Origin: Bacteroidales bacterium
GTDB lineage: Bacteria; Bacteroidota; Bacteroidia; Bacteroidales; P3
DNA length: 64,000 bases
Direction of reading: 5' to 3'
NCBI GenBank assembly: GCA_017509045.1
Contig: JAFWQP010000044.1
Span: 1,499-65,498, forward strand
The notes under the pieces are model-generated. The model saw only the letters and a list, made by a program, of their open reading frames with translations, was not told the origin of the DNA and did no database searches. Below are positions 47,994-61,545 of this stretch, piece after piece (position 1 is the stretch's first letter; every line of letters begins with the position of its first letter). The translations under genes and the position numbers were made by a program.

Positions 47994-48100
47994 TTTTATA
48001 GCTTTAAATAATCAAGCAGTAATGCATACTTTAAATAATTAGTCTATCAATATAAGATCTAGTCATTTCTTAGAAAACAACTAATTTTATTACATAAATT

Positions 48101-48311
48101 CACTAGTGTCTCTTAATTAAATTTGCAATTTCCATATTGCCTCTTATCCTCATGAGAATTGGATAAATGAAGGAATGGAGATGATTTCAAAACCTACGAT
48201 AGATTCTCACGGACGAATGTTATTTCAAGCCTCGGATACATGTTTTGATGCTTAAGTTGCTATAAATTATGTTACTATATATACATTAACAAAATTTCAG
48301 AGACACTAGTG
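48101..48311. repeat. 13-bp perfect inverted repeats bracketing a 185-bp AT-rich segment
   Basis: cactagtgtctct (48101-48113) against agagacactagtg (48299-48311). Both are adjoined by acataaatt(c). Confidence 0.75.
48118..48125 (+). promoter_or_regulatory. -7 box (TAAATTTG) inside the IR-bracketed segment, currently pointing away from the downstream island genes
   Basis: Exact TAnnTTTG on the plus strand, 5 nt inside the left IR. Confidence 0.35.
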
Positions 48312-48397
48312 ACATAAATTCTTTTTTTATATTTAATAATAGTAATCAAGATTTCTGAATATATGTTGAACGCTTAATTTCTATTAATAGAAAGTTT

Positions 48398-48745
48398 TTA
48401 TGTATTTCTTTTACGGCCACATCTATGGCAGTATTTAGAGTATGTCTGATAATAATGAGTGTGACACTGAGGACATTCTTGGTCTGCATCTATTAATACT
48501 TCCTTTTTATTATGTTCTTTGGTGTTTGAAATAGACGTAGGTGGCATAATAACATTATTCGAATTAGTGGATATTTTTTTTTCATTAGACGAAGAGCTGT
48601 CAATATCCTTTATCTCGGCACAATACATTTCAATAGACTGGCATCCATCATCCTTTGTGAGACAATTAAGACAATCATTAGGTTGGGAAATACTGGTACT
48701 AACTGAAGCTAGTTCTGTCATTTGGTTATTATCTATCTCTTCCAT
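48398..48745 (-). CDS. Small protein with a C-terminal zinc ribbon (island gene 14)
   Basis: 115 aa ending ...ECPQCHTHYYQTYSKYCHRCGRKRNT. Confidence 0.6.
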   Translation of the reverse strand: MEEIDNNQMTELASVSTSISQPNDCLNCLTKDDGCQSIEMYCAEIKDIDSSSSNEKKISTNSNNVIMPPTSISNTKEHNKKEVLIDADQECPQCHTHYYQTYSKYCHRCGRKRNT

Positions 48746-48813: not shown

Positions 48814-50379
48814 TTATTGCACATTTTTTAGCCTTTCACGAATAGTTAGACATTCGTCATCTTGGAGAGGTTTGATTTGATATGTGCGAGAGGGAGACCC
48901 ATCGCTATTAACGGTCAGTGACATCAAACCACTCTTGTCTCGACTGATTGAAAAATTCACTTGTGTTTCTTTTGTTGTGGCATTTGGATTGGAAAATGTG
49001 TATTGTTCATAGAAAATGCGGCGATCGATGTTTCGTTCCTGGTCTTCTATTGGAAATGGGAAATCCTCTTCATCACGTTCATTTTCCCATATATCTACAG
49101 ATACTGCAGGCTGTCCGTTCTCATGGGGATTAAAAACATAATCTTTACTGTATTCCATATTTTCTGAATACCGGATAAGGTTCTTAATGTAAAAATTGAC
49201 TTTGTCATGATATAAAGTACCATATGAGTGAGAGGATAATTCATAAATGGAAGCCTTATTACTTTCTAATAGATATGCATATATTGCTGCACCTTCTGCG
49301 ATGGCTTGTCCAGGATTACCTTGAGGAAACCATTGATAGGGATCGCCTGTTCCTATTCGTCCACCATAATTGCGCATAAGAGTGTTGCGTATCATTGGCA
49401 TATATGATGATCCTCCGACTGTTACAAATCTCATCTGACGAAGTTCTGTTTCAGACAGTCCACTACGACGAATAGCCTCATCAACAACTAGAAGACATTG
49501 TTGGGTAAGTTGCATGGTGAGATTCTCGAAATTACTTCTCGTAATAGTAAACTCTTTGTCACATCTTGGCAAAATATCCGTACAAGATTCATCATCAGTA
49601 AGATTTTTCTTCACCACTTCGGCCCTGTTCATTATTGCCGCACGAAGACAACGTTGGTCTCCTGTTGGGTTATCGAAATCAACATTTATGTCAGACTGGT
49701 TTGCTATCTCTTCTGCAAGAAGTCTGTCCCAATCTTGCCCACCAAGATAATGCCCCAAAACGCCATAATCGCTTGATGAAGCAAGAACCCGATATTTGCC
49801 AGCCTCATAATGATGAACAATACTTACATCAAGAGTCCCTCCTCCTAGGTCGAAAACGAGAATTCGTTCGCCCGCGTTAATATTAAATGAAAGAGCGGCA
49901 GCAGTCGGTTCGTGAATAAGGCCCAATACTTCTATACCTGCCAATTCGGCTGCTTGTTTGGTTGCTGCCCGTTGCCATCCAGTAAAGCCTGTTGGGATAG
50001 AGATAACTGCACGCGGACGTGCTGTAACACCATTGGCTTTATTCTGTTCGAGTACTGGAGAGATTAGTTTACGCAATATGCACGCAGATCCTTCGATGGG
50101 CGACACCTTGCGTGTACCATCATTTGACGGTATTGTTTGTTCACAGTACTGATGACCCATCTGACGCTTAAAAAGAGACAATACTTGATCTGCAGCAATA
50201 TTGGATTCAGCTTGCCGTTTAGCGGTAGCCCCCACAAGTATTTTCCCGTCCGGTTTGAACTGAACGACTGATGGTAGAAAGTTGTGTCCGTTTTCAGTTG
50301 GGATAACTGATGGACGGTTGTATCCTTCAAATTGAGCAATGCAGGAATATGTAGTTCCTAAATCTATTCCGTAAACCAT
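48814..50379 (-). CDS. Hsp70 (DnaK-like) family ATPase with a short divergent C-terminal domain (island gene 13)
   Basis: GIDLGTTYSCIA, VFDLGGGTLDVSIV and VTVGGSSYMPMI are the three Hsp70/actin-fold signature segments. 521 aa against about 640 for DnaK. Confidence 0.9.
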   Translation of the reverse strand: MVYGIDLGTTYSCIAQFEGYNRPSVIPTENGHNFLPSVVQFKPDGKILVGATAKRQAESNIAADQVLSLFKRQMGHQYCEQTIPSNDGTRKVSPIEGSACILRKLISPVLEQNKANGVTARPRAVISIPTGFTGWQRAATKQAAELAGIEVLGLIHEPTAAALSFNINAGERILVFDLGGGTLDVSIVHHYEAGKYRVLASSSDYGVLGHYLGGQDWDRLLAEEIANQSDINVDFDNPTGDQRCLRAAIMNRAEVVKKNLTDDESCTDILPRCDKEFTITRSNFENLTMQLTQQCLLVVDEAIRRSGLSETELRQMRFVTVGGSSYMPMIRNTLMRNYGGRIGTGDPYQWFPQGNPGQAIAEGAAIYAYLLESNKASIYELSSHSYGTLYHDKVNFYIKNLIRYSENMEYSKDYVFNPHENGQPAVSVDIWENERDEEDFPFPIEDQERNIDRRIFYEQYTFSNPNATTKETQVNFSISRDKSGLMSLTVNSDGSPSRTYQIKPLQDDECLTIRERLKNVQ

Positions 50380-50405: not shown

Positions 50406-51383
50406 TCACTCACAAAGTATTACTTTCTCAGGACTTAACATGCTTTCAGGAAGCCCAGAAGATGCACGCCAAACCAAACGAGGCAAAACGGTATATGCCA
50501 CAGTATTTGATTCTTGTCCCAGTATAGAAATGGGGACATGCTCATCATCCACCTCCATAGTTGATGCATCAAAAGCAGTTCCAAGCTTGGAAATAATCGC
50601 TGTCAAACCGATAGAATCAAGATTTCTTCTAAGAAAGCTGAGGATTAACTCCAATTCATTCCCGTCATATTCTGGGTTATTCTCTTTTTTGTATAACAAA
50701 CGTTTGGCCGTACGTTCATATAGTTTTACAGGCATTTCGACGAGTTTATACATTAGTCTCTGATAAACAGACTCCGCGCATAATTCATTACTATTGGAGG
50801 AACTGGATGTTTGTGCAGTTATTGTTCTCGACAATTGGTCAATATTAAAACTAATGTTGTTCAGTGTATTACTTAACTCAGTTGATAACTCATCTGTTTT
50901 TCTTGCTGTATTAACGGTCATTTCAGGTTGTTTTTTTTGCTGTAACTGATTTATATTATTCCTGATGCTGTCAGCCAATTGCGAAAAACCTGTTGCCAAT
51001 TTTTCTTGCAGTTCTTTAATAGTTTGGATTGTGTTTGTGACAACATCCAAAGATTGACCATTCGGTAATGAACAAACCAAATCATTCAATTTAGACAACT
51101 CAGTAAAGAAGCTATCTTGTTGTACTTTTATCTCCATGATACTATTCATCGAATTGAGTATTGACTTGACACCCTGGCAGACTTCATTTTCTGAAGCAAT
51201 CAATGCATCAATTTTGTTTGTCTCTACCTCAGCACTATTATTCTCCGATTGCACCTCTGGAACGGTTTGTTTCTGTATTAGCCAAGCTATCTGTTCAAGG
51301 CTTAGGGGTACATTGTAGTATTTTACGCCATCTTTTGTCGTAATCGAAACAATATAGTCTATAGTATTCATATCCGAAATCAT
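50406..51383 (-). CDS. Coiled-coil protein with a GrpE-like C-terminal domain, putative dedicated nucleotide-exchange factor (island gene 12)
   Basis: Long predicted coiled coil, then ...LDSIGLTAIISKLGTAFDASTMEVDD...NTVAYTVLPRLVWRAS...LSPEKVIL. This parallels GrpE ...FGVEVI...G.PFDP..H.A......V......GY......R.A.V.V as I recall it. The gene directly precedes the Hsp70 gene. Confidence 0.5.
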   Translation of the reverse strand: MISDMNTIDYIVSITTKDGVKYYNVPLSLEQIAWLIQKQTVPEVQSENNSAEVETNKIDALIASENEVCQGVKSILNSMNSIMEIKVQQDSFFTELSKLNDLVCSLPNGQSLDVVTNTIQTIKELQEKLATGFSQLADSIRNNINQLQQKKQPEMTVNTARKTDELSTELSNTLNNISFNIDQLSRTITAQTSSSSNSNELCAESVYQRLMYKLVEMPVKLYERTAKRLLYKKENNPEYDGNELELILSFLRRNLDSIGLTAIISKLGTAFDASTMEVDDEHVPISILGQESNTVAYTVLPRLVWRASSGLPESMLSPEKVILCE

Positions 51384-52204
51384 TTTTTCTTTATTATTAT
51401 TGTAACTTGACCGATGATAATTCTGTCATCGTGTTGTAGCGATATCTCGTGGGGCTTATGACCCATGTAATTATGGTTCCAATCCCCCTCTTGCAATGTT
51501 GCTTTGAGAGTGAACGTATTTGTCGTGGGATTTTGGACTGCCTTGATAATGAAATGATTCTTTTTTACTTCAGGATCTCCTGTTTGTAACTTGCAACGCT
51601 GAGATCCTTGCGGAATATCGATAGTTCCTTTCCCAACATAGGTATCACCATAATATATTGGATGAATATCGTTAAGGCTGTTGGCTTCAGTTCCTCCAAC
51701 GTATACAACCATATAGGCTAAAGGGGTTTTGTTGTCATTAGTGTTCGGAAATGATGGCGTTTGGCTGCTCCCTTCTTGAGTTGCCTTCATCTCTTCTATC
51801 AGTTTCTCTAATTGTGTTTTTTCATTACTCAATCTTTCTCGTTCTACAGAAACTGAATCTAATTGCTGCTGTTTTTCAATGATTTGATTGCGTAAACCGA
51901 CGTTCTCCTCCGCAATTGCATTCTGTCTCTCTATTTGGGTCTTGAAATTGGATATTTGTTGTTCTAGTTTCGTGATTTTCTCCTGAGCTTTACAATTGTT
52001 TTCCGTTAGGGTGTCGATTTGCTCTTTTGAGTTATTGATTAGTTCCCAATTCCTTTTGGCAATTTTAATTCTTTGTGCATCTATCTGCTGGATGACAGGA
52101 TTAGGTGTAGACACCAACATCTGTCTGTTTTCAAATCCACATGTAGGACAGATGGAAGAACTGTGTGTTTGTCCACATACAGGACAAGTAATGTGTTGAT
52201 CCAT
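51380..52204 (-). CDS. Zinc-ribbon, coiled-coil, FHA-like domain protein (island gene 11)
   Basis: N-terminal CPVCGQTHSSSICPTCG, ~110-aa heptad-rich middle, and a C-terminal beta domain ...YYGDTYVGKG...KKNHFIIKAV...ISLQHDDRIIIGQVTIIIK with an FHA-like pattern (divergent). Confidence 0.55.
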   Translation of the reverse strand: MDQHITCPVCGQTHSSSICPTCGFENRQMLVSTPNPVIQQIDAQRIKIAKRNWELINNSKEQIDTLTENNCKAQEKITKLEQQISNFKTQIERQNAIAEENVGLRNQIIEKQQQLDSVSVERERLSNEKTQLEKLIEEMKATQEGSSQTPSFPNTNDNKTPLAYMVVYVGGTEANSLNDIHPIYYGDTYVGKGTIDIPQGSQRCKLQTGDPEVKKNHFIIKAVQNPTTNTFTLKATLQEGDWNHNYMGHKPHEISLQHDDRIIIGQVTIIIKKK

Positions 52205-52206
52205 AA

Positions 52207-52842
52207 TTATATTTTTATTGGTAATCTATTAAGTCTTTGTGCATTATGTTGTCTATCTAATGGTGAATTTCGCAAGTAGTATATTGTTTCTTTATCGGAA
52301 GCAATGACGAGAATGATTTTGTTCTCTGAAAGTAATTGATGAATTTTATCGATGATGCCAAGTGGATTACAATCATCCTCCTGATTGCCTTTTTCTTCTA
52401 TTTGGAATAATTTACACAAGAAAGTTTTCTCCACTCTATAAAGCAAGAGGATACCATTGCGGTAGTGTTCTGGGGGTGGGATTAGGGAAGAGTCTCCATC
52501 AACCACAACAATATGGCCAAGAAAATCCCAATTCTTTTTCTTGATTCTTGTCGACAATTGGCGTAACAAAACAATAATGGACTCTTTATCAACCAAGTTG
52601 GTATAAAATAGCCTCTTTTCCATACTATTATGTCTTAAATATTGCCAAGTAACAATAATTAAAAACAAAATGACAACCCCAATAATGTATAACGACATGG
52701 TACTATTGGATGTATTATTTGAGACTATTGATTCTATGCTGTCTTGATTCACTTTAGATGAGACATCCAGTATCACGCAGGATGAGTCTCCGTTCAAAGC
52801 ATTTAATGAATCATATAATAATCTATTGGATGTATCATTCAT
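52207..52842 (-). CDS. Single-pass membrane protein of unknown function (island gene 10)
   Basis: TM segment LYIIGVVILFLIIVTWQYL at about aa 50-70, then a ~140-aa alpha/beta-looking domain. Confidence 0.5.
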   Translation of the reverse strand: MNDTSNRLLYDSLNALNGDSSCVILDVSSKVNQDSIESIVSNNTSNSTMSLYIIGVVILFLIIVTWQYLRHNSMEKRLFYTNLVDKESIIVLLRQLSTRIKKKNWDFLGHIVVVDGDSSLIPPPEHYRNGILLLYRVEKTFLCKLFQIEEKGNQEDDCNPLGIIDKIHQLLSENKIILVIASDKETIYYLRNSPLDRQHNAQRLNRLPIKI

Positions 52843-52862: not shown

Positions 52863-55697
52863 TTATTGATTATTTTCCATCAAAGAAATCCCGTCTCGCA
52901 ATTCACTCACGGTGATTTGTTTAGAGGAATAACAGGCGTTTTGGACGCAAAAGGTACGGTGTGCGCTTATGATTTTGTCGACCAGATTGCGCACCCATCT
53001 GGCATTGTCTTTATTTGATATCACATAACCCATTAGTTCCTCTTTTGCATCATCGGTTAAAGTGTAACCTCTATTATCTAACATTGACGTGGCTATCTTA
53101 TACAATTCCTCCTTCGAATAGTCTCCTATGGTTATCCTATTTGGAAATCTACCAGACATTCCTGTGTTTACTTCATTCAAAAGTCGATCAATATTGTCTT
53201 TATAGCCAGCCATAATAACAACGATGTCATTACGATCATTCTCTAGGTATGAAACAAGCGTATTGACAGCCTCTATTCCACAGGAATCTTCCTTACCACG
53301 ATACAGAGAGTACGCTTCGTCAATGAATAGTACTCCTCCTTTTGCTGCCTGTATGCGTTGCGCCACATTGGGTGCCGTTTGCCCCTGGAAGCCAACAACT
53401 AGTTGTTCCCGCCTAACCTCAACAATATTTCGGCGAGGAAGAAGCCCCAATTCATAGTATATGTCTGCCAGCAGACGAGCAACAGTGGTCTTACCAGTTC
53501 CAGGATTTCCATACAAGATAAGGTGTTGTACTCCAAGGTCAGATGCTTTCCCTATGCGATGTCTGTATTCGGCATCATTTTTTAGCTGTTGCACATATTT
53601 CTTAACTTCCTGCATTCCAACAAGGTCTTCAAGCTGCTCAATTGCCGACCTAGTATCCTTTTGTCTAGCAGTTGTCAGTCCTGGGATAAAGCCATGTAGT
53701 TCCTCAATATCGGGTAGATTTCGAAAATCATCGAGAATAAGTCTATAGGGGTCTACCTCTGGGTTTTGAACACTGCGTATGGCAACTTTTGTTTCAACTG
53801 CACTCAATAAATTGCGAACCCACCTACCGTTACCAAAATTGTATGTTTCCTTTCGTTGTATACGTTGTTCATGATGATTATTGTCATTGATACGTTGGGC
53901 ATTAATGGATCTTACTTCGTCAGTACGTCTATCTTTGTATTCAATGACATAGCCCATCATATCGGAAAGCATTTGGTTAATCTCATCATTAATAACAAAA
54001 GAACGTTTTTGTGCCATCGAAACAAAGATTTGTTTCAATTCATCAGCCGAATAGTCGTCAAATAGGATGGTATGTTTAATACGACTTTTTAGACCAGGAT
54101 TGATGCTATAGAGAGATTTCATATTCTCTTCATAACCAGCAAAAATAACCACTAAGTCTTTTCGGTCGTTTTCCATCCTCGCCAAAAGAGTGTTGACGGC
54201 TTCGGCACCAAATTCGCGCGATCCACCCTCGGTAAGTCGATAAGCTTCATCAACGAAAAGCACGCCACCCATGGCGGAATCAATCACTTCGGATGTTTTT
54301 ATTGCTGTTTGGCCAACATATCCTGCAACAAGGTTTTCTGCACTTACCTCAATTAGTTGACCTTTGCTAACAACACCCAATTCTTTTAGTATTGCGGCAA
54401 CTATTCGTGCCACTGTAGTCTTACCTGTACCTGGATTACCTAAAAAAAGCATATGATTGCCATAATCGCCAACAGCATCTCTATTATTCCTCCTGTTGAG
54501 TTTTATTTGTGCCTTTATTCCGTCGATAGTTTCCTTTACTGACTGAAGACCTATTAAGTCATCTAGTTTTTGATTATTTTTCATTCCTAATTTCATTTTT
54601 CTTGTTTCCAATGAACTATAGTTTTCGAAACTGAGTGGATTATTTGAGGAGAGTGCTTGGTATGTTATATTTCTATGTTCTCTTAGCGAATGTTGATTAT
54701 CACCGGCAAGTGTTGCCAACACTGAAAGTTGGCGAGTCAATTCATCCAAAACGGCCCATTCGATATATGTGTTTGGATATTGAAGATGTTCCAGCTCAAT
54801 AATATTCTTAATGTCATTGGCTTGAGGTGCAGGTAAAAAAAAGGAATTATGGGAGAGACGTTTTATCGGTACTCCATCAGTGTCTTTAGGTGTCGAAATA
54901 TCATCAAGCATTGGTATGGTTTCTCTCCAAAGATTACAAAAATTTGTATTGGCAAAGAAAATACTTTGGGGCCTTTCCTTGAATATTTCACTCACAGCAT
55001 TGGTATTACCGCTGTCAACTGGCATTAACACGATGACCCTATTTTCAGCATTTGAGTTATGAGATTGACTTTCACCATATCTGCTTCCCAAAGTGTTAAC
55101 AAGAACATCATATAAATGGCTGCTGGTTGCTACTGAACATTCTCCTTCGTTGTAGTTAGAATCTATCACCAACACACTATTGGAAATACGCGTCAGGGAA
55201 TAGCATAGTTGCATAATGTTAGCATCTCGGTTTCCTCCTCTATGTTCTCTTGATTGTGACGAACTACTGCCTTTTCTCGTATATCTACTAATTTGGTCAT
55301 CATATAATATAACTTTTGATGGGTCCGTAACGACTGAAAGATTATCATTTATTAGGCTATTGTTGTCAGCCTGTTGCCTTGCACGACGAAATGGATTGCG
55401 TGGGTTTTCGCCTTTATTCATAGTTCTAGATTCCAACTCATCTGTATCTGCATTGACTTTTAAAGATTGGTCAGGATAAAGGAAATTGATTAACATCTCT
55501 TTGTCAAAACTGTTAGGGCCACTGACGGTACTATAGAAAATTATATTCTTATATCCCTCATGTTTCAGATATAGAAAAAGAGCCTTATGGATGTCGCCAT
55601 GTAAACGCAATGCAGAATCAATGAAGCAATCCGAGTAATAGAAGATTGCCGAAACCACAGGACGCTGACGTATATTAAGATTATTGAATCGATTCAT
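52863..55697 (-). CDS. Large ATPase with two SpoVK/CbxX/EccA-type AAA+ modules and a ~400-aa N-terminal region of unknown function (island gene 9)
   Basis: Two copies of the Walker A sequence GNPGTGKTTVAR, two Walker B motifs GGVLFVDEAY / GGVLFIDEAY, and NPGLKSRI / NTGMSGRF sensor regions. The ATG at 55697 lies 16 nt after the upstream stop, and the track start at 55781 is a TTG. Confidence 0.9.
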   Translation of the reverse strand: MNRFNNLNIRQRPVVSAIFYYSDCFIDSALRLHGDIHKALFLYLKHEGYKNIIFYSTVSGPNSFDKEMLINFLYPDQSLKVNADTDELESRTMNKGENPRNPFRRARQQADNNSLINDNLSVVTDPSKVILYDDQISRYTRKGSSSSQSREHRGGNRDANIMQLCYSLTRISNSVLVIDSNYNEGECSVATSSHLYDVLVNTLGSRYGESQSHNSNAENRVIVLMPVDSGNTNAVSEIFKERPQSIFFANTNFCNLWRETIPMLDDISTPKDTDGVPIKRLSHNSFFLPAPQANDIKNIIELEHLQYPNTYIEWAVLDELTRQLSVLATLAGDNQHSLREHRNITYQALSSNNPLSFENYSSLETRKMKLGMKNNQKLDDLIGLQSVKETIDGIKAQIKLNRRNNRDAVGDYGNHMLFLGNPGTGKTTVARIVAAILKELGVVSKGQLIEVSAENLVAGYVGQTAIKTSEVIDSAMGGVLFVDEAYRLTEGGSREFGAEAVNTLLARMENDRKDLVVIFAGYEENMKSLYSINPGLKSRIKHTILFDDYSADELKQIFVSMAQKRSFVINDEINQMLSDMMGYVIEYKDRRTDEVRSINAQRINDNNHHEQRIQRKETYNFGNGRWVRNLLSAVETKVAIRSVQNPEVDPYRLILDDFRNLPDIEELHGFIPGLTTARQKDTRSAIEQLEDLVGMQEVKKYVQQLKNDAEYRHRIGKASDLGVQHLILYGNPGTGKTTVARLLADIYYELGLLPRRNIVEVRREQLVVGFQGQTAPNVAQRIQAAKGGVLFIDEAYSLYRGKEDSCGIEAVNTLVSYLENDRNDIVVIMAGYKDNIDRLLNEVNTGMSGRFPNRITIGDYSKEELYKIATSMLDNRGYTLTDDAKEELMGYVISNKDNARWVRNLVDKIISAHRTFCVQNACYSSKQITVSELRDGISLMENNQ

Positions 55698-55713
55698 ATT
55701 CTTAACGTTTTTT

Positions 55714-57012
55714 TTACGGATTAATTGTGTGCTGACGTCGCTGAATACTGTGTCTTCGACTTGTTTCATCATTAATTTCAAGTGGTGAATTAATGTCTAT
55801 TGACTCTGGGTTGCATGGTGCCGAACTTGTCACTGTCATTCCACTGGCACGGAGATCTTCTAGTATTTCTTTCTCAAGAGTATCGAGTAGCTTTTGGTCA
55901 ATATAAGCACCACTGTCTACTCTCACAAGCGTATGAACATCCCCTTGTTCCTTGCCTGGACTGACTATTATTTCAACAATGGCCTTGTCAGACTGACGTA
56001 GCATTCTCAGGATGTAACTTTCTCGTTCATCATTGTGGACGAAACCTTCTGTAATAACTTGAAAATAATAGTCAGAAGACAAAATATCCCTTATGAAATC
56101 AGCTTGCTGATGTCGCAAAATGGATAGTTTGATTTCGGAGACGGTAGATGCTGCTTGCAATTCCTGCATTTTCTTCAATTCCACGAGACGAGTTAGGTCG
56201 GATTGTAATTGTTGCATTGAATAGGATGGCTGCAGATTAGCCGATTCCAACCTTCTTCTAATCTCGTTCAGTTCATCCTCTATTAATTTGTACTGTCCGT
56301 CAGTCCAATAATCAATATTGCTGGCGTGATGCTTCTCGTCGCCAAAAACAAAGGTGTTGTTGCGGTGTCCAGCCGCATCCGACAACATGGTATTTGACAA
56401 TTCTAGAGCCTCATTGAGTGTGTCATAGAATCGTATTCGTGCACTAGTGACCTCGCTGTCAGAAAGAAGTAAATCTGTCATGGCAGATTGCAACCTAGCA
56501 CGTTTGGCAAGAGGATTCATCTCTACAGAGGTTGCCTGATGAAGTGCGGCATCCACATTTAGAAGTCGTTGACTGGCAAATCTTTGGTAGTCTACATCTG
56601 ATTTAGCAATGCTAAATTCAATTTGTATTTGCTGATACAATTGTTCGGCATCTGAATAGTTGGCTGCTATCTGATTTGTTATGTCCGCCACATGTCTGGT
56701 GGATCTATCAATCTGTTCTTGCAATAGCTGTACTGAAGATGCCACTTGATTAATGTCTCCAACAATTTGATTATATTTTTTGATTCCCCTTCTTTCAATT
56801 TCATGCAAGGTATTGATATGGTGCTTCCGTTGTTCAGAAATATGCTGGTCTGTTTGCCCGATTCCATCCTGTATCTGTTTGAAAATAGCTTGTGCGCGAT
56901 TGACGGCTTGATCCATTACCCGTTTAGAAGCTTCGCCAGACCGTAGTCTTTCTATTTCATCCGTTATTGCAATATATTGCTCCGACTTAATTTTTGTTGT
57001 GTTTTCACTCAT
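55714..57012 (-). CDS. Coiled-coil protein, paralog B (island gene 8)
   Basis: 432 aa. Shares with paralog A the order coiled coil, IDYWT motif, helix, YYF-containing alpha/beta C-terminal domain. Confidence 0.6.
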   Translation of the reverse strand: MSENTTKIKSEQYIAITDEIERLRSGEASKRVMDQAVNRAQAIFKQIQDGIGQTDQHISEQRKHHINTLHEIERRGIKKYNQIVGDINQVASSVQLLQEQIDRSTRHVADITNQIAANYSDAEQLYQQIQIEFSIAKSDVDYQRFASQRLLNVDAALHQATSVEMNPLAKRARLQSAMTDLLLSDSEVTSARIRFYDTLNEALELSNTMLSDAAGHRNNTFVFGDEKHHASNIDYWTDGQYKLIEDELNEIRRRLESANLQPSYSMQQLQSDLTRLVELKKMQELQAASTVSEIKLSILRHQQADFIRDILSSDYYFQVITEGFVHNDERESYILRMLRQSDKAIVEIIVSPGKEQGDVHTLVRVDSGAYIDQKLLDTLEKEILEDLRASGMTVTSSAPCNPESIDINSPLEINDETSRRHSIQRRQHTINP

Positions 57013-57036
57013 GATAATTAATTGTATTATATATTG

Positions 57037-58398
57037 TTAATGAAAAAGTTTTTGAGCCTTAAGATGTTCTGATAAGTGTATTCTGTCTGTAGAGGGCACA
57101 ATCTCATCTTCATCCTGTTGTGACGAAAATGTTTGCCCTCTCTTTTCTGTTTCCGACAAGACTATTCCAAGATCTAAGAGAGTTTTTTTGATATCATCAT
57201 ATAACTTTTGTTCAATATTATAATCAATATATCTATTATATGCATAATGACAAATCGTATCTATATTATCACTTCCATGGACGGGATTTAGGACCAATCT
57301 TAAGTTTATGTTTAGCGCGGGATTATTAAGGTATACCACATAGCCCAATCGGTCATCGTCGTCATCGTACCCATCAAGTGTAAGCGTAAAGTAATATTGA
57401 CGTACAAGCTCGGAAGTTGCCAACAGAGCAAGCTGGACTCTGGTTTTCGAATTCCGCAATGAAGTTATTGCAAGTGGTACAATACGGTCTATCCGTTCTA
57501 TCTGTCCTTTCAACAATTCGCGGTCTTGCCTTAGGTTTTCGACCATGTACCCTGGAGTGATTGTCGAATTTCTCATTCTTGGAACTATCACTTCCCGGAT
57601 ATAGTGTACTAAGCTGGAGAATTCGTTGTATGTCCAATAATCAATATCGATTTTTTCCTGCGGGTTGTCAGAGTCACTGTCATAATACAAATCATTTTCA
57701 TAATGACTTATTAATTGTAATGCTTGGTCGATTTGTCCATTGGCTTGTGCCAATTCGCTCAAGTATTCAATGCGTTTATGGTCCACCTCTTTTTGCCCTG
57801 CCTTAATGACTGTCATGATGTCCAATGCTATTGTCTGAAGAACAACTGCGGGAGATGTGTTGTTAATCTGATTGACTTTGAGAACCAACTCATTCAAGTC
57901 TCGCACGTTATATTTCTTCCAATAAGGATCTTCTTTTATGGAGTCGAACATCTCTATTGCCTGTTGGCAATTGAGATGTGCAATTTGTTTGTCTCGATCT
58001 GCTTCACGTTCTATTGCATCAATGTTTCGTTTTAGTTCTTGTTGTTGCTCTTGTTGCCGTTTTATTTGCTGCCTTATGTTTGATATTTCTTTTGCTAACA
58101 AGTCGTACTGTTTCTTCCCTTCAGAATACAGTCTATTTAACTCTTCTTCGCATTCTGCCAGTATTTGATCAATTACAGTCTGGTATTGTTGTCGTTCTCT
58201 ATCCCAAGTTTGCTGCATTTGGGCAATGAGATCAAGCATTCTTTGGGGATTCGCCTTTTGTGGTTTCTTACGAAGAACAGACAACTCATGCATGAGTCTA
58301 TCATAAGCATTATTGTCCAGATAAATATCGCTGTGGGTTTCTGGATTCCAATGCCCCCATATATATCTGTCATATTCGCTTCTGGTTCGTTTAGCCAT
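57037..58398 (-). CDS. Coiled-coil protein, paralog A (island gene 7)
   Basis: 453 aa. Contains IDIDYWTYNEF and ...VRQYYFTLTLDGY, compared with NIDYWTDGQY and ...SSDYYFQVITEGF in paralog B. Confidence 0.6.
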   Translation of the reverse strand: MAKRTRSEYDRYIWGHWNPETHSDIYLDNNAYDRLMHELSVLRKKPQKANPQRMLDLIAQMQQTWDRERQQYQTVIDQILAECEEELNRLYSEGKKQYDLLAKEISNIRQQIKRQQEQQQELKRNIDAIEREADRDKQIAHLNCQQAIEMFDSIKEDPYWKKYNVRDLNELVLKVNQINNTSPAVVLQTIALDIMTVIKAGQKEVDHKRIEYLSELAQANGQIDQALQLISHYENDLYYDSDSDNPQEKIDIDYWTYNEFSSLVHYIREVIVPRMRNSTITPGYMVENLRQDRELLKGQIERIDRIVPLAITSLRNSKTRVQLALLATSELVRQYYFTLTLDGYDDDDDRLGYVVYLNNPALNINLRLVLNPVHGSDNIDTICHYAYNRYIDYNIEQKLYDDIKKTLLDLGIVLSETEKRGQTFSSQQDEDEIVPSTDRIHLSEHLKAQKLFH

Positions 58399-58414
58399 AT
58401 AATGATAGTTTGTT

Positions 58415-59008
58415 TTAAATGTATTTTTCCCGTGGTGGTGCGATACCTACCGATATCATCTCCTCGTCGGAAAGGAGAAATAGTTGGCGTCTGGGATGAG
58501 GATGGCTTTCGAGTTCTTTCGCAAATGGTTGCAGACGTTCCGTAAAAAAATAGTATTTCTGGTTGGAACTGCCTCTTAGTCCTAAGTCATCGTTCAGGCT
58601 ATCAATATACGGTCCGTCTATAAGCAAGTCGACCAAGGTGGAAAGTTTAGAGCGTATGTTGTTGTCTATTTCGTCAAACAAAAATCCTGTGAAGAGAATG
58701 ATGTCCCATTCGGGGAGGAAAATACGAACATCTTGCAAAAGTGAAAATACAGACTGAGCCTGAATTAGTGGTTCTCCCCCACTAACGGTTAATCCACTGC
58801 AGTTACTCTGTTTCATGAGTTCAATTAACTCGACAGTTGAGTAGAATACACCTCCAGTCGTAGACTGCAAGTTTGGTGATGCGCAGCGAAAGCAACTACG
58901 ATTACACCCTTTTGTCCATAGCACGAAACGGTTGCCTGGTCCAAGAGAGTTTACTGGAAAGCAATAATATCCAATTTTGATTCTATATTCAAGTGGTTTA
59001 TTATTCAT
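58415..59008 (-). CDS. NrdG-like radical SAM activating enzyme (island gene 6)
   Basis: SLGPGNRFVLWTKGCNRSCFRCASP (CX3CX2C), SGGEPL, ILFTGFLFDEI and DGPYIDSLNDDLGLRGSSNQ. These parallel E. coli NrdG GPG..C..CPGC, SGGDP, VWTGYKLDEL and RGSSNQ as I recall them. Confidence 0.82.
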   Translation of the reverse strand: MNNKPLEYRIKIGYYCFPVNSLGPGNRFVLWTKGCNRSCFRCASPNLQSTTGGVFYSTVELIELMKQSNCSGLTVSGGEPLIQAQSVFSLLQDVRIFLPEWDIILFTGFLFDEIDNNIRSKLSTLVDLLIDGPYIDSLNDDLGLRGSSNQKYYFFTERLQPFAKELESHPHPRRQLFLLSDEEMISVGIAPPREKYI

Positions 59009-59037
59009 CTAGACCAATTTGGTTAATTGGATGTACA

Positions 59038-59541
59038 CTAGTAACTGAGAGATTCCATTGGCAGATTTCTACGTTTATTCACCTCTTCTTTTAAAATCTC
59101 TTCAACTGAGGATAGCTTCGATTCGATTTCAGAGAAAATGTTTTTTATTGCATCATTGTCTTTTAGATTATCCAACTGTTCAGAAACTTTTTTGACGAGT
59201 TCTTCGTGTTGCCGTATTCCTGACATTCGGTCATCGCATGCCGTGATAACCTCATTCCACTCTTTGTTTTTCAAATTAATGATGTTATTTTGTCTTTCTA
59301 TTTGTATCTTTATCATATCAGCAAAACGAGATTCTAGATCACAGAGATTTTGTTCATTAAGAGCAGCGTTTGAATACTCGGCCAAAATCTTTAATGCAAA
59401 CAAACGATGCAACGCATCATCATCTTTCAGCAAGAGATTTACAATATTATGAATCTGACCCTCAATATCAGAAAGTGTCAGTGTTGAGATTTCAGGCAGA
59501 TTCTCAATTAGAGATTCTATTTGATTTTGAATTGTAGACAT
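59038..59541 (-). CDS. Small coiled-coil protein (island gene 5)
   Basis: 167 aa, largely helical and heptad-like, with no recognisable motif. Confidence 0.5.
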   Translation of the reverse strand: MSTIQNQIESLIENLPEISTLTLSDIEGQIHNIVNLLLKDDDALHRLFALKILAEYSNAALNEQNLCDLESRFADMIKIQIERQNNIINLKNKEWNEVITACDDRMSGIRQHEELVKKVSEQLDNLKDNDAIKNIFSEIESKLSSVEEILKEEVNKRRNLPMESLSY

Positions 59542-59611
59542 GTGTGTGTCATTTATTGTTACTATTGGGTTATTTGCTATATCGTTTTAAAAAATGACAA
59601 AAGTCTAAAAA

Positions 59612-60700
59612 TCATACCATTAATAAATCTTTGGTATTAGTTTCGTTTTCTGGAAACTTGACATCGTTTGATTGAGCTGAATTAATATCGGCAGTATCAT
59701 CTTTTTCATTAGTATCTGTGTTTGGAGTTATAACTTCATTATTGGGAAACAATACAACATCTTTGTTTAGTTCATTAGACGTAGTAATGTTAATTACGGT
59801 TTGTCCAAATACGTTTGTAGTACTATGTAGAGAAAAACAGAAGTATTTTACGCCTGACATCTCAATGTTGGGTACGGAATCATACACAAATTGCGACAGC
59901 GGGACTTTGGGTAAAAGGAAAAGATAATCCATATCTGTACCGTCAGGGACATACACAAGTTGTGTCGTTTCTGGTGTTAAGTAGCCATGGTGAATATCTG
60001 ATTCAGATACTGATGTCATTAGGCAAACTCGGTGATTAGATGGCACAGCACACATTTCTCTGCGGAATTCGGAAATAAGCTCATTGCTACAACAATCGAA
60101 TGGCGTTTTTTGAATTAGCAGCGATACTGTTGCACGTACCTGAAGTGCGAATGCCAGAGGTAATATCCTGCCGTCCTCTGACAGAATGATGACTTCTGCA
60201 TCAGTCGGCAAAGAACTTACTGCCTTGCTGCAAGAGTCCAATAATTGGTGAAATTTTATCTCGCTCGAATCATTAACGAACAATTCGTCGTACTTCTCAT
60301 CGTATCGTATTTTCCGCAACGGTTCATCCGGATAATGTCTAAAACACATTTTCCACCATTTGTCAGTACGAACCACGTCATATAGTTCACCAAGAATACC
60401 ATACAGCTCAGTCAACGCCTTTGGCATTGTTGGAAAAGAAACATTGAAATTGCCCTGTCCAATTGATTCTGAAAAAGGAATAAAATTGAAAGCGATAGTT
60501 TCCAACCTGTTTTTTAATGATAGAAATAATAAAATATTTTTGTTCGAAATATTCTCACAAAGGCCATTCTTCCATAGGATTGCCAATGCCGCTTCGGAAC
60601 TATGTACCACCCCACAATTCGACTCTCCGTTTGAGCAAGTGGAGGTTGGTAACTGCCTTAGCCATTGGCAATAATTGCTATATTCGTTTATTAGTCTCAT
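59612..60700 (-). CDS. Hypothetical protein with an N/T/D-rich tail (island gene 4)
   Basis: 362 aa with no motif I recognise. The last ~60 aa are low-complexity (NNEVITPNTDTNEKDDTADINSAQSND). Confidence 0.5.
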   Translation of the reverse strand: MRLINEYSNYCQWLRQLPTSTCSNGESNCGVVHSSEAALAILWKNGLCENISNKNILLFLSLKNRLETIAFNFIPFSESIGQGNFNVSFPTMPKALTELYGILGELYDVVRTDKWWKMCFRHYPDEPLRKIRYDEKYDELFVNDSSEIKFHQLLDSCSKAVSSLPTDAEVIILSEDGRILPLAFALQVRATVSLLIQKTPFDCCSNELISEFRREMCAVPSNHRVCLMTSVSESDIHHGYLTPETTQLVYVPDGTDMDYLFLLPKVPLSQFVYDSVPNIEMSGVKYFCFSLHSTTNVFGQTVINITTSNELNKDVVLFPNNEVITPNTDTNEKDDTADINSAQSNDVKFPENETNTKDLLMV

Positions 60701-60728
60701 CGTTATTTTCTATATGTAATACAACAGA

Positions 60729-61007
60729 TCATGTTAATAGTTCCATTATTTCCCTTGCATTCCGTTTGCTAAAACCACATGCACGCACTTCTTTGCCGCC
60801 AGTACTTTCAATTATGATATCTGCGAACAGAAGTCCCGCAGCAATTCGTACACTTGATATGTTCGCCTTAGCGATGAATGCTTGTCGATAACCAACTATT
60901 GTCCCTTTGAAATAGGTGACATTACCATTTTCATCATCTATTTCTAAGCGGTCTGGGAATACAACATTGTCGTTCCCTGATATTCTGCTGGCCACGTATG
61001 TTGGCAT
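60729..61007 (-). CDS. Small protein, possibly a bacterial PH-like (bPH) domain (island gene 3)
   Basis: 92 aa. ...ISSVRIAAGLLFADIIIESTGGKEVRACGFSKRNAREIMELL resembles the YdbS/YdbT-type bPH C-terminal strand-helix pattern. Tentative. Confidence 0.4.
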   Translation of the reverse strand: MPTYVASRISGNDNVVFPDRLEIDDENGNVTYFKGTIVGYRQAFIAKANISSVRIAAGLLFADIIIESTGGKEVRACGFSKRNAREIMELLT

Positions 61008-61008
61008 A

Positions 61009-61299
61009 TTAAGGTTGTTTTGAGAGTTCTATGAAATAGTATATAACTTTAAAGAAGTGTATAATGAATGCGAATGCGGCGGTTACTAAACCCAATGTAA
61101 AAAACAAGAGCATCTTTAAAACGACCCCTACTCCCTCATACTTCATAAATGATGTTCCTTCAAACAAGTTCGTCATCCAAATTGGGCGCACACTTTCCAT
61201 AAAGAGAGCAGCTAGCCCTAATGTGAGAACTACAATTAGCGAAGACTTCCTTTTCTCACGGATTTCTTCTGAATAAACATTGACGGGCAGAACAATCAA
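61009..61299 (-). CDS. Two-TM small membrane protein (island gene 2)
   Basis: TM segments SLIVVLTLGLAALF and LLFFTLGLVTAAFAFIIHFF. A 1-nt gap separates it from the next gene. Confidence 0.5.
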   Translation of the reverse strand: MIVLPVNVYSEEIREKRKSSLIVVLTLGLAALFMESVRPIWMTNLFEGTSFMKYEGVGVVLKMLLFFTLGLVTAAFAFIIHFFKVIYYFIELSKQP

Positions 61300-61532
61300 T
61301 CATATGGATAATACTTATATACCCCTTGATGCTCTTGACATAAACTTGCTGCAAGTTCTGGATCCGAACAGTATTCCATGATGCTGATGACAGATTCATC
61401 ACCGTACCGTCCCTCAAAATAGAGTTTGTCTGAATCTTGGTAATCTTGATACATTTTGTTATACAAATGATTCTTAGCATCCTCGTATTTTTGTTCTGAT
61501 GGGAAAAAATATGTGCTTCTTCTTTTTGACAT
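61296..61532 (-). CDS. Small Tyr-rich protein (island gene 1)
   Basis: 78 aa, first ORF of the operon, with a 4-nt overlap with gene 2. Confidence 0.4.
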   Translation of the reverse strand: MSKRRSTYFFPSEQKYEDAKNHLYNKMYQDYQDSDKLYFEGRYGDESVISIMEYCSDPELAASLCQEHQGVYKYYPYD

Positions 61533-61545
61533 AATATTTATTTCT

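What the first reader, a model, noticed from the sequence alone, without database searches (positions are those of the whole stretch)
58415..59008. Orphan NrdG-like glycyl-radical activase with no class III RNR or other glycyl-radical enzyme nearby
The 197-aa product has CX3CX2C (CNRSCFRC), SGGEP and a C-terminal RGSSNQ-type motif that I associate with anaerobic ribonucleotide reductase activase. NrdG normally sits beside nrdD. No island protein shows a canonical RV[SCA]GY glycyl-radical motif or NrdD-like length. The enzyme may generate a radical on, or modify, another island protein or a nucleic acid or nucleotide. That would be a plausible effector or modification step.
Basis: partly seen in the sequence, partly recalled or inferred. 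Interest (0 to 1): 0.7.

Follow-up and report, generated by a model that had tools for sequence, protein, structure and literature searches.

The report
NrdG-derived radical SAM enzyme, AAA+/Hsp70 island
The gene is a real radical-SAM enzyme descended from the activase of anaerobic ribonucleotide reductase, but it belongs to a large unstudied subfamily that has lost the glycine-gripping residues and always sits in an operon with coiled-coil proteins and a protein-threading AAA+ ATPase (often with an Hsp70), which looks like an undescribed conflict or defence system.

Summary
Window 58415-59008 on the minus strand encodes a 197-aa protein with C35-x3-C39-x2-C42, SGGEP (76-80) and RGSSNQ (145-150). 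It matches Pfam Fer4_12 at E 2.4e-28. No NrdD homologue and no canonical glycyl-radical motif occurs anywhere in the 64 kb.

It is not housekeeping NrdG.
- It scores 86.5 bits against the NrdG equivalog model, whose cut-off is 126.1.
- It falls outside the single clade formed by NrdD-adjacent NrdGs.
- It carries Leu and Ser where PFL-AE and true NrdGs have the Asp and Asn that anchor the substrate glycine.
- It has an extra C-terminal tail of about 45 aa (a helix plus a beta-hairpin).

These traits define a subfamily of roughly 1,150 clusters at 50% identity. Its gene order is conserved from Bacteroidota to Bacillota and Cyanobacteria: a small coiled-coil protein, the rSAM, one or two ~450-aa coiled-coil proteins, then a tandem SpoVK/CbbX-type AAA+ ATPase. 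Hsp70, FHA/PP2C/kinase or trypsin modules are often added. One relative has the rSAM fused to an AAA+ module.

My best reading is a radical-generating subunit of an undescribed conflict system that acts on a protein delivered by the AAA+ ATPase. The substrate and the chemistry are inferred, not shown.

The parts
58415..59008 (-). NrdG-derived radical SAM enzyme, 197 aa. It has cluster cysteines C35/C39/C42, SGGEP 76-80 and RGSSNQ 145-150. Its subfamily hallmarks are Leu22, Trp31 and Ala43-Ser44, plus a C-terminal extension of about residues 155-197 (a helix and a beta-hairpin ending in V-G188-I-A-P).
59038..59541 (-). Small coiled-coil protein of 167 aa, immediately upstream of the rSAM. A protein of 135-414 aa, mostly coiled-coil-rich, occupies this position in related loci. 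Its 'RMSGI' glycine is not conserved.
59612..60700 (-). Globular protein of 362 aa with no family match. It is the first gene of the conserved block. It is conserved in the closest relative L091 (E 4.5e-102), and proteins of similar size hold this position in more distant loci.
57037..58398 (-). Coiled-coil protein of 453 aa ('cc5' family, paralogue A), immediately downstream of the rSAM.
55714..57012 (-). Coiled-coil protein of 432 aa ('cc5' family, paralogue B). It has long helices over residues 10-315, a conserved D-Y-W-T-x-G motif around 233-239, and a small C-terminal beta4-alpha-beta domain at 317-397. It has no solved-structure relative.
52863..55781 (-). Tandem SpoVK/CbbX/EccA-type AAA+ ATPase. 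The ORF is 972 aa from a TTG codon. The likely true start is Met30 at 55694, giving 943 aa, because homologues begin at 'MNRF'. It has an N-terminal degenerate domain of about 400 aa, Walker A motifs at 448 and 758, Walker B motifs VLFVDEAY and VLFIDEAY, and pore-loop-like GYVG and GFQG.
52207..52842 (-). Protein of 211 aa with a hydrophobic, apparently membrane-spanning stretch (LYIIGVVILFLIIVTWQYL). It is a variable accessory gene.
51380..52204 (-). Protein of 274 aa with an N-terminal zinc ribbon (CPVCG...CPTCG), a coiled coil and a weak C-terminal FHA-like match (E 0.03). Homologues follow the AAA+ gene in L002, L091, L093 and L094.
50406..51383 (-). Helical protein of 325 aa with no family match, lying between the FHA-like gene and the Hsp70 gene.
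48814..50379 (-). Hsp70-like protein of 521 aa. It matches Hsp70/DnaK/HscA over residues 2-436 and scores below the DnaK and HscA equivalog cut-offs. An Hsp70 gene is present in about half of the related loci.
60729..61532 (-). Three small upstream genes: p92 (weak bacterial PH domain, 60729-61007), p96 (hydrophobic, 61009-61299) and p78 (61296-61532). All three are conserved only in the closest relative L091, so they are accessory.
46420..48745 (-). Two zinc-ribbon proteins at the low-GC island's left end: 402 aa at 46420-47628 and 115 aa at 48398-48745. Whether they belong to the system is not established.

Best explanation
The gene encodes a catalytically competent radical SAM enzyme that evolved from the class III RNR activase NrdG. 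It now works as a dedicated subunit of a multi-protein system carried on a low-GC island. The system has a small coiled-coil protein, the rSAM, two paralogous ~450-aa coiled-coil proteins and a tandem SpoVK/CbbX-type AAA+ ATPase. It also has a membrane protein, a zinc-ribbon/FHA-like protein and an Hsp70-like ATPase.

Proposed mechanism: the [4Fe-4S] cluster cleaves SAM to the 5'-deoxyadenosyl radical, as in PFL-AE and NrdG. That radical abstracts a hydrogen atom from a polypeptide segment, and the AAA+ motor (with the Hsp70) extracts or presents that segment. The target is not a canonical R-V-x-G-Y glycine loop. The modification or radical then arms, matures or constitutes the output of a conflict system, probably an anti-phage one.

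Shown: family, fold, intact catalytic motifs, loss of the glycine anchors, the extra C-terminal module, the conserved partners and the fusion to an AAA+ module.

Inferred: a protein substrate, the role of the AAA+ ATPase as presenter, and a defence function.
For: 1. Catalytic apparatus
- CX3CX2C, GGE and RGSSNQ are invariant in a 33-member alignment.
- The model has pLDDT 93 and the PFL-AE fold.

2. Not NrdG
- It scores 86.5 bits against a cut-off of 126.1.
- NrdD-adjacent NrdGs form one clade that excludes it.

3. Substrate site changed
- The PFL-AE Asp16 and Asn38 anchors (PMC9326890) align to Leu22 and Ser44.
- In the window clade the Asp16-equivalent is L or I in 19/19, and the Asn38-equivalent is N in 1/19.
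- True NrdGs have D/N plus H-N in 10/10.
- In 229 family members Leu occurs 222 times, and a tail of at least 35 aa is present in 215 of 218.

4. Obligatory partners
- The order rSAM, coiled-coil protein, multi-AAA+ recurs in Bacteroidota, Bacillota, Cyanobacteria and others.
- An AAA+ gene lies next to the rSAM in 17 of 21 loci of this clade.
- All 4 loci retrieved with the p432 profile carry rSAM-p453-p432-AAA.
- In L005 the genes overlap by 4 nt.

5. Rosetta-stone fusion: P0207 is the rSAM fused to a SpoVK-type AAA+ module, and it sits in an otherwise syntenic locus.

6. The partner repertoire is protein-centred
- The AAA+ ATPase has intact Walker A and B motifs and GYVG and GFQG pore-loop-like motifs.
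- Partners include Hsp70, trypsin fused to the AAA+ ATPase, and FHA/PP2C/kinase modules.
- No nucleotide-metabolism genes were seen.

7. Conflict-system setting
- The island has GC 0.37 against 0.50 for the flanks.
- Neighbours in relatives include SLFN_AlbA_2, HerA, a CAP12-PCTIR TIR protein and DO-GTPase genes.
- The AAA+ ATPase weakly resembles the anti-phage ATPase IetA/IteA.

8. Precedent: in the HXS system, rSAM enzymes mature a protein effector for phage defence (PMC13128918).
Against: - No substrate was identified.
- No partner has an invariant glycine or another obviously targeted residue. The coiled-coil family's G239 is replaced by Asn in p453 and in L014. The p167 glycine is not conserved. 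The N-terminal region of the AAA+ ATPase has no conserved loop.
- The loss of the peptide-backbone anchors could equally mean a switch to a non-protein substrate.
- QueE and viperins are the next structural neighbours.
- No experimental or literature link to phage defence was found. PADLOC has no model for the rSAM or the coiled-coil proteins.
- Hsp70 is present in only about half of the loci.
- The fusion evidence rests on one representative sequence.
Confidence: 0.45

Rival explanations
1. Small-molecule or nucleotide-directed radical SAM effector or signal generator, analogous to viperin making ddhCTP or QueE rearranging CPH4. The AAA+, Hsp70 and coiled-coil proteins would act only as sensors or regulators that switch it on.
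For: - The peptide-anchoring Asp and Asn are replaced by Leu and Ser/Thr/Ala.
- The added C-terminal helix and hairpin supply a further beta/alpha unit beyond the shorter true NrdGs. I infer, without testing the model geometry, that this could narrow the open side that activases use to admit a protein.
- QueE and viperins are the next best structural matches after PFL-AE.
- No protein substrate could be pinpointed.
Against: - Family scores for QueE (18 bits against 300) and viperin (12 against 180) are negligible.
- The G-P-G-x-R loop typical of activases is kept, rather than QueE's nucleotide-type loop (the QueE motif is from my own knowledge).
- No kinase for nucleotides, Nudix, cyclase or nucleotide-binding receptor appears among the conserved neighbours.
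- The conserved partners and the AAA+ fusion point to protein handling.
Confidence: 0.2
2. A true glycyl-radical activase for a non-canonical glycyl-radical protein encoded in the operon. Candidates are the coiled-coil family's D-Y-W-T-x-G loop, p432 'RASGM' or p92 'RACGF'.
For: - Its closest relatives by sequence and structure are glycyl-radical activases.
- G239 of the coiled-coil family is at least 90% conserved in alignment A3.
- p92 carries R-A-C-G-F, conserved in the 77%-identical homologue of L091.
Against: - The glycine anchors are lost.
- G239 is Asn in p453 and in L014, which is the pattern of a turn residue.
- The p432 'RASGM' glycine is N or D in some homologues.
- p92 is absent from all distant loci. 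I read its motif as part of the C-terminal segment of a bacterial PH domain, supported only by a weak bPH_3 match at E 0.0036.
- No partner resembles a 10-stranded glycyl-radical barrel or GrcA.
- The subfamily is common in aerobes such as Pseudomonas, Streptomyces, Bradyrhizobium and cyanobacteria, where a stored glycyl radical would be oxygen-labile.
Confidence: 0.12
3. Ordinary housekeeping NrdG that serves an nrdD gene located elsewhere in the genome.
For: - NrdG is the top family hit and the RGSSNQ motif is present.
- Some public records name relatives 'anaerobic ribonucleoside-triphosphate reductase activating protein'.
- The host is a Bacteroidales MAG, so it is probably an anaerobe that needs class III RNR. 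That last point is my own inference.
Against: - It scores below both NrdG equivalog cut-offs: 86.5 against 126.1, and 63.1 against 199.
- It lies outside the NrdD-adjacent clade.
- It lacks the D/N and H-N residues found in 10/10 true NrdGs, and it has a 47-aa tail against 13-21 aa.
- It sits in a foreign low-GC island.
- It is embedded in the same operon in many phyla.
Confidence: 0.03
4. Nucleic-acid-directed radical enzyme (DNA or RNA modification or damage), or a mainly non-catalytic sensor or decoy derived from NrdG that recognises a phage protein such as phage NrdD.
For: - Phages commonly encode NrdD and NrdG. Most of the 79 viral-contig hits are of the short NrdG type, and 27 have a detectable NrdD nearby.
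- Related NrdG-like clades sit next to SF1 helicases.
Against: - All catalytic residues are invariant, which argues against a decoy.
- The window system has no nuclease, methylase, helicase or other nucleic-acid-binding domain. It has only zinc ribbons.
- The subfamily occurs in aerobes whose phages rarely carry class III RNR. That last point is my own knowledge.
Confidence: 0.08

Closest known systems
NrdG, the class III (anaerobic) ribonucleotide reductase activase (TIGR02491 / PRK11121)
   Same: - It is the best sequence family, at E 1.8e-24.
- Both have a G-x-G-x-R loop followed by GC-x3-C-x2-C.
- Both have SGGEP, D-G-x-[YF] and R-G-S-S-N-Q.
- Both have a compact core of about 150 aa.
   Different: - It scores below the curated cut-off.
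- No nrdD is adjacent.
- It belongs to a separate clade.
- It has Leu where NrdG has Asp/Asn, and Ala-Ser where NrdG has His-Asn.
- It has Trp31.
- It has an extra C-terminal helix-hairpin of 40-60 aa.
[quoted passage not shown]
   Same: - It is the best solved-structure match (Foldseek E about 8e-8, TM 0.54-0.57).
- It shares the partial TIM-barrel radical SAM fold.
- It has the same N-terminal loop and cluster motif.
   Different: - PFL-AE anchors Gly734 of its substrate with Asp16 and Asn38 (PMC9326890). Neither residue is kept here.
- There is no PFL or other glycyl-radical enzyme partner.
- The PFLA model scores 43 bits against a cut-off of 232.
HXS antiphage system (HxsB/HxsC radical SAM maturases acting on the effector HxsA; Nat Commun 2026, PMC13128918)
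   Same: - It is a precedent for radical SAM enzymes maturing a protein effector in phage defence.
- HxsC is among the weak family hits, at 41 bits.
   Different: - The score is far below the HxsC cut-off of 268.
- No His-Xaa-Ser repeat protein is present.
- There is no second rSAM.
- The partners here are AAA+, coiled-coil and Hsp70 proteins.
Prokaryotic viperins (pVips) and QueE
   Same: - They are radical SAM enzymes used in antiviral defence or nucleotide chemistry.
- They are the next structural neighbours.
   Different: - Family scores are negligible, and the PADLOC pVip match is only E 0.007.
- They have different substrate loops.
- They stand alone, whereas this gene is embedded in an 8-13-gene operon.
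IetAS / SpoVK-CbbX-EccA type AAA+ modules of conflict systems, and the NTPase-centred 'ternary' systems of Kaur et al. 2020 (PMC7159879)
   Same: - The system's ATPase is of this type, and its match to IetA/IteA is E 1e-20 to 1e-22.
- The architecture pairs a constant NTPase core with variable accessory modules.
- DO-GTPase systems are neighbours in L088 and L090.
   Different: - None of the described systems contains an NrdG-like rSAM or the ~450-aa coiled-coil family.
- In the papers I could read, radical SAM is mentioned only for a different FtsH/vWA system.

Membership tests
Radical SAM superfamily | CX3CX2C motif binding a [4Fe-4S] cluster | tested here: met
   C35, C39 and C42 are invariant in 33 homologues.
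Radical SAM superfamily | SAM-binding GGE motif and a partial TIM-barrel fold | tested here: met
   S76-G-G-E-P80 is invariant. The AF2 model has pLDDT 93.3 with alternating beta/alpha units. Foldseek's top hits are PFL-AE, QueE and viperin.
Radical SAM superfamily | Reductive cleavage of SAM to 5'-deoxyadenosine | not testable with these tools
   This needs a biochemical assay.
NrdG (TIGR02491 equivalog) | Score at or above the curated cut-off | tested here: not met
   It scores 86.5 bits against 126.1 for TIGR02491, and 63.1 against 199 for PRK11121.
NrdG (TIGR02491 equivalog) | Genomic pairing with nrdD | tested here: not met
   No NrdD homologue occurs in the six-frame translation of the 64-kb window. 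In genome loci, the NrdD-adjacent proteins form a separate clade. The rest of the MAG could not be searched.
NrdG (TIGR02491 equivalog) | C-terminal R-G-S-S-N-Q motif near the end of a protein of about 155-175 aa | tested here: inconclusive
   The motif is present at 145-150. It is followed by 47 more residues, against 13-21 in NrdD-adjacent NrdGs.
Glycyl-radical enzyme activating enzymes (PFL-AE / NrdG type) | Asp16 and Asn38 equivalents that hydrogen-bond the substrate glycine (D-G-x-G-x-R and C-H-N) | tested here: not met
   The equivalents here are Leu22 and Ser44 (alignment). The roles of Asp16 and Asn38 come from PMC9326890. The Asp16-equivalent is Leu in 222 of 229 family members, and the Asn38-equivalent is Asn in 5 of 229.
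Glycyl-radical enzyme activating enzymes (PFL-AE / NrdG type) | A cognate protein with an R-V-x-G-[YFW] glycyl-radical loop | tested here: not met
   No island protein has a strict match. The loose matches are either not conserved or restricted to the closest relative.
QueE (7-carboxy-7-deazaguanine synthase) | Family model score | tested here: not met
   It scores 18.5 against 300 for TIGR04349, and 18.3 against 260 for TIGR03963.
Viperin / pVip | Family model score | tested here: not met
   It scores 12.3 against 180 for NF038283. The PADLOC pVip match is E 0.0067 at 14 bits.
HxsC (HXS antiphage system) | Family model score plus a His-Xaa-Ser repeat substrate | tested here: not met
   It scores 41.1 against 267.9. 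No island protein has tandem HxS repeats.
Known anti-phage defence systems (PADLOC-DB v2.0.0) | Match of the core genes to a defined system | tested here: not met
   Only the AAA+ ATPase matches, weakly, to IetA, TRIP13 and DolB. The Hsp70 matches PDC-M61B at 6e-7. The rSAM, the coiled-coil proteins and p362 have no meaningful hits.

The most novel reading that the evidence does not exclude
This would be a previously unrecognised class of immune or conflict machinery. A tandem AAA+ unfoldase, often working with a dedicated Hsp70, would feed a host or phage polypeptide to an NrdG-derived radical SAM enzyme. That enzyme would abstract a backbone or side-chain hydrogen from a non-glycine site. 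The result would be a covalent change that fires the response, such as epimerisation, a crosslink, or oxygen-dependent chain cleavage. Sister clades of the same enzyme are wired to Clp-like ATPases with Ser/Thr kinases, to SF1 helicases and to WD40 proteins. That would imply a broad family of radical-based effector or maturation modules across bacteria.
Probability: 0.25. Interest if true: 0.85.

Novelty: new variant of a known kind. Interest (0 to 1): 0.66.

Why it matters
Radical SAM chemistry is known in prokaryotic immunity from a few cases only, namely viperins, 7-deazaguanine pathways and the recently described HXS system.

This case is different in scale. It is a compact NrdG-derived enzyme subfamily of about 1,150 clusters at 50% identity, with thousands more in sister clades. 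Public records routinely label these proteins 'anaerobic RNR activase' or '4Fe-4S single cluster domain protein'. In fact they are hard-wired to protein-remodelling ATPases in islands that look like defence loci, from gut Bacteroidales to Pseudomonas, Streptomyces and cyanobacteria.

If the proposed role holds, three things would follow:
- It would define a new enzymatic logic for conflict systems.
- It would give activase enzymologists a natural example of retargeted substrate recognition (Asp to Leu, Asn to Ser, and an added beta-hairpin).
- It would correct a widespread annotation error.

It is directly testable with cluster-cysteine mutants, phage challenge assays and mass spectrometry of co-expressed partners.

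Tried and rejected
**Housekeeping NrdG.** Rejected on score, phylogeny, anchor residues, the tail, synteny and island composition.

**p167 as a GrcA-like radical carrier via 'RMSGI'.** The glycine is not conserved in homologues.

**p92 'RACGF' as an NrdD-like motif.** It is conserved in L091. However, p92 gives only a weak bacterial PH-domain match and is missing from all distant loci.

**A conserved target loop in the N-terminal domain of the AAA+ ATPase.** That region has only a variable, disordered linker.

**Homology between the coiled-coil family (cc5), the 440-aa coiled-coil protein of the Clp/kinase clade (cc9) and DUF1257-like proteins (c7).** This was meant to identify a universal partner. 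hhalign E-values ranged from 0.16 to 0.0006 with probabilities below 30%, so it is not demonstrable.

**Structural identification of p432.** The model has pLDDT 80, but no Foldseek match in the PDB was below E 0.1. A profile search of PDB sequences returned only coiled-coil noise.

**PDB sequence relatives of p362 and p325.** None were found.

**Apparent long N-terminal 'fusions' of the rSAM in high-GC genomes (L016, L061, L067).** They have no homologues elsewhere and are probably over-extended ORFs.

**Island boundaries, attachment repeats, promoters and terminators.** Nothing exceeded chance.

**Literature.** Eight searches found no description of this system. ARMADA, CoCoNuT, the DO-GTPase and MoxR-vWA ternary systems and HXS are all different.

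**Other searches.**
- E. coli genomes and plasmids hold no close DNA relative.
- A narrower alignment gave only 4 loci.
Full report
**1. The observation**

Window 58415-59008 holds a 197-aa ORF on the minus strand. The plus-strand frame is broken by stop codons.
- The protein has C35-x3-C39-x2-C42, S76-G-G-E-P80 and R145-G-S-S-N-Q150.
- Pfam assigns it to Fer4_12 at E 2.4e-28.
- The best NCBIfam model is NrdG TIGR02491, but at 86.5 bits against a curated cut-off of 126.1.
- PflA, HxsC, QueE and viperin models score far lower.
- The best PHROG is the phage 'anaerobic RNR small subunit'.
- An AlphaFold2 model built on 33 homologues has mean pLDDT 93.3.
- Its best solved-structure matches are PFL-activating enzyme entries 3c8f, 8fo0 and 3cb8 (E about 8e-8), followed by QueE and the viperins.
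- No NrdG entry appeared among the PDB matches.

The 'orphan' claim also holds. Nine NrdD sequences taken from real nrdDG loci find nothing in the six-frame translation of the whole window, and there is only one NrdG-like ORF. No island protein carries R[VIT][SCAT]G[YFW].

**2. Setting**

The gene lies in a low-GC block of about 46-62 kb (GC 0.36-0.39) within sequence of about 0.50 GC.
- The host is a Bacteroidales MAG. The neighbouring protein p432 is 100% identical to 'IKH33_03425 [Bacteroidales bacterium]'.
- E. coli genomes and plasmids hold no close DNA relative.

On the minus strand the genes run as follows:
- p78, p96 (hydrophobic) and p92 (weak PH domain)
- p362 (no family)
- p167 (coiled coil)
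- the rSAM
- p453 and p432, which are paralogous coiled-coil proteins (BLASTP E 1e-11)
- a tandem SpoVK/CbbX/EccA-type AAA+ ATPase
- a 211-aa protein with a hydrophobic segment
- a protein with a zinc ribbon, a coiled coil and an FHA-like region
- p325
- an Hsp70-like protein

Details of the ATPase:
- Its Walker A motifs are at 448 and 758.
- Both Walker B motifs read hhhhDEAY, and the pore-loop-like motifs are GYVG and GFQG.
- Its true start is probably Met30, because homologues begin there.

**3. The neighbourhood is conserved across phyla**

Relatives of the rSAM have the same arrangement at several levels of identity:
- 65% identity: P0005, locus L091
- 44% identity: P0026 (locus L002) and P0019 (locus L087)
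- 37-41% identity: P0074, P0098 and P0116

The arrangement is one or two upstream proteins, the rSAM, one or two proteins of 440-540 aa, then a multi-AAA+ protein of 620-2,200 aa. These are often accompanied by Hsp70 genes, by FHA, PP2C or kinase genes, or by a trypsin domain fused to the ATPase.

A scan of one genome per species returned 80 loci. I clustered their ORFs.
- In the window's rSAM clade, the downstream 450-540-aa proteins form one single-linkage family with p453 and p432.
- A SpoVK-type AAA+ gene is adjacent in 17 of 21 loci with enough sequence.
- In the reverse direction, all four metagenome loci retrieved with a p432 profile carry rSAM-p453-p432-AAA in that order.
- In L005 the small coiled-coil gene, the rSAM and the 501-aa gene overlap by 4 nt. 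I read this as translational coupling.
- One representative, P0207, is a natural fusion of the rSAM to a SpoVK-type AAA+ module, and it sits in an otherwise syntenic locus.

**4. It is not NrdG, and probably not a glycine activase**

In a neighbour-joining tree of about 80 NrdG-like proteins, all those next to a bona fide NrdD form one clade. These NrdD proteins are about 756 aa and end in a zinc ribbon and R-I-T-G-Y.

The window protein belongs to a different clade. Further clades are tied to other contexts:
- Clp-like ATPases with Ser/Thr kinases and a 440-aa coiled-coil protein
- SF1 helicases
- WD40, Hsp70 and DUF1257-like proteins

In PFL-AE, Asp16 (of D-G-x-G-x-R) and Asn38 (of C-H-N) hydrogen-bond the substrate Gly734 (PMC9326890). 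HMMER aligns these positions to Leu22 and Ser44 of the window protein.

| Group | Asp16-equivalent | Asn38-equivalent | Residues after RGSSNQ |
|---|---|---|---|
| NrdD-adjacent NrdGs | D/N in 10/10 | H-N in 10/10 | 13-21 |
| Window clade | L/I in 19/19 | Asn in 1/19 | 40-62 |
| Clp/kinase clade | L in 13/13 | S or A (no Asn) | 60-76 |
| Remaining clades | E/N | Asn retained | 40-77 |

Across 229 members, drawn from the top 120 homologues and 147 representatives at 50% identity, the counts are:
- Leu at the first position in 222
- His at the His37-equivalent in none
- Asn at the second position in 5
- a tail of at least 35 aa in 215 of 218

In the model the tail is a helix (159-167) plus a beta-hairpin (174-186) ending in an invariant Gly188.

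A profile search of 1.84 billion representatives gives 13,888 proteins at E <= 1e-3, 5,954 at E <= 1e-10 and 1,150 at E <= 1e-30. The top 150 almost all match the full length, including the tail. In viral contigs the short NrdG type dominates and the window type is rare.

**5. Search for the substrate**

None of the conserved partners offers a convincing glycyl-radical site.
- The coiled-coil family has a conserved D-Y-W-T-x-G motif, but the Gly is Asn in p453 and in L014, which is the pattern of a turn residue.
- The 'RMSGI' glycine of p167 is not conserved.
- The N-terminal region of the AAA+ ATPase has only a variable linker.
- 'RACGF' in p92 is conserved in the nearest relative. However, p92 gives only a weak PH-domain match and is absent from distant loci.
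- The p432 model (pLDDT 80) shows long helices and a small beta4-alpha-beta C-terminal domain, with no significant PDB match.
- I could not demonstrate homology between this family and the coiled-coil or DUF1257-like partners of the sister clades.

**6. Interpretation**

Established:
- It is an intact radical SAM enzyme of NrdG ancestry.
- Its substrate-contact residues have been retargeted, and it has gained an added module.
- It forms a large distinct subfamily.
- It is genetically locked to coiled-coil proteins and a threading-type AAA+ ATPase, and in one case fused to one. It often occurs with Hsp70.

Inferred:
- It abstracts hydrogen from a polypeptide presented by the ATPase.
- The whole assembly is a conflict or defence system.

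The defence inference rests on three things:
- the foreign low-GC island
- variable accessory modules (trypsin, FHA/PP2C/kinase, membrane proteins)
- neighbours in relatives such as SLFN_AlbA_2, HerA, a CAP12-PCTIR TIR protein and DO-GTPase systems (Kaur et al. 2020)

The HXS system shows that radical SAM maturation of a protein effector is used in phage defence (PMC13128918). This protein is not HxsC, and no HxS repeats are present.

The main rival is a small-molecule or nucleotide substrate. The loss of the peptide anchors is compatible with that reading. The protein-centred partner set and the retained G-P-G-x-R loop argue against it.

**7. Literature and novelty**

Eight full-text searches and targeted reading found no description of this gene set.
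- NCBIfam (June 2026) has no dedicated model for the rSAM, and Pfam offers only the general Fer4_12 domain.
- NCBIfam, Pfam and PADLOC-DB (2023) have no model for the coiled-coil partners.
- Some public records call relatives 'anaerobic ribonucleoside-triphosphate reductase activating protein', which the evidence here contradicts.

I rate the enzyme as a new variant of a known kind. The system around it appears undescribed, with the caveat that most papers in subscription journals were not searchable.

Noticed in passing
L032, L036, L052, L054, L062, L075, L082 (genome loci; e.g. L082:3698-9400): A sister clade of NrdG-like rSAMs (214-226 aa, also with Leu in place of Asp16) sits in a different conserved operon. 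That operon has a 440-aa coiled-coil protein, a ~620-aa Clp-like AAA+ ATPase, the rSAM, and a Ser/Thr kinase protein of 800-2,100 aa. It occurs in Pseudomonas, Undibacterium, Bradyrhizobium, Comamonadaceae and actinomycetes.
   Followed up: partly
L028, L042, L044, L050 and L024, L026, L078, L085: Further NrdG-like clades, which retain Asn38 but have the C-terminal tail, are linked to two other gene sets. One has a ~1,100-aa SF1 helicase and two unknown proteins. The other has an AAA+ ATPase, an Hsp70, a small DUF1257-like protein (Pfam E 0.003) and a ~750-aa WD40 protein.
   Followed up: partly
L090:854-2305 (protein P0207): This is a natural fusion of the subfamily rSAM to a SpoVK-type AAA+ module (483 aa). 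It is followed by a 496-aa protein and an AAA-AAA-trypsin protein, with a DO-GTPase gene downstream.
   Followed up: yes
L023:4643-6536: Three tandem TerD-like paralogues (201-210 aa, with GDDEQI motifs) lie directly upstream of the rSAM in a Lachnospiraceae locus. This hints at a link to Ter-type stress or conflict modules.
   Followed up: no
window 60729-61007 (-): The 92-aa protein has a weak bacterial PH-domain match and the sequence V-R-A-C-G-F, which resembles the NrdD glycyl-radical motif. It is 77% identical in L091, which is more conserved than the rSAM itself (65%), but it is absent from distant loci.
   Followed up: partly
window 46000-62000 versus flanks: The GC content drops sharply, from about 0.50 to 0.36-0.39. 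No flanking direct repeats or tRNA gene were found. A XerD-like tyrosine recombinase ORF (43432-44334) lies about 2 kb to the left of the island; I recognised it from its sequence alone and ran no family search on it.
   Followed up: partly
window 61950-63100: Overlapping, broken ORFs on both strands lie at the island's right edge. These include 62076-62534 (weak HTH matches) and 62535-63089. They look like remnants of a transposase or insertion sequence.
   Followed up: no
window 55694-55781: The mechanical AAA+ ORF starts at a TTG codon that overlaps the end of p432 by 68 nt. Homologues start at the 'MNRF' methionine (Met30, nt 55694), so the annotated start should probably be moved.
   Followed up: partly
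L005, L006, L007, L009, L089, L090: In these relatives the tandem AAA+ ATPase carries a C-terminal trypsin-like protease domain. This suggests a proteolytic output in some versions of the system. The window version lacks it and instead has membrane, FHA-like and Hsp70 genes.
   Followed up: partly
window 1-46000: I did not examine the host-like part of the window, which includes large ORFs such as 28898-33484 (1,528 aa), beyond its composition and a check for NrdD and rSAM homologues.
   Followed up: no
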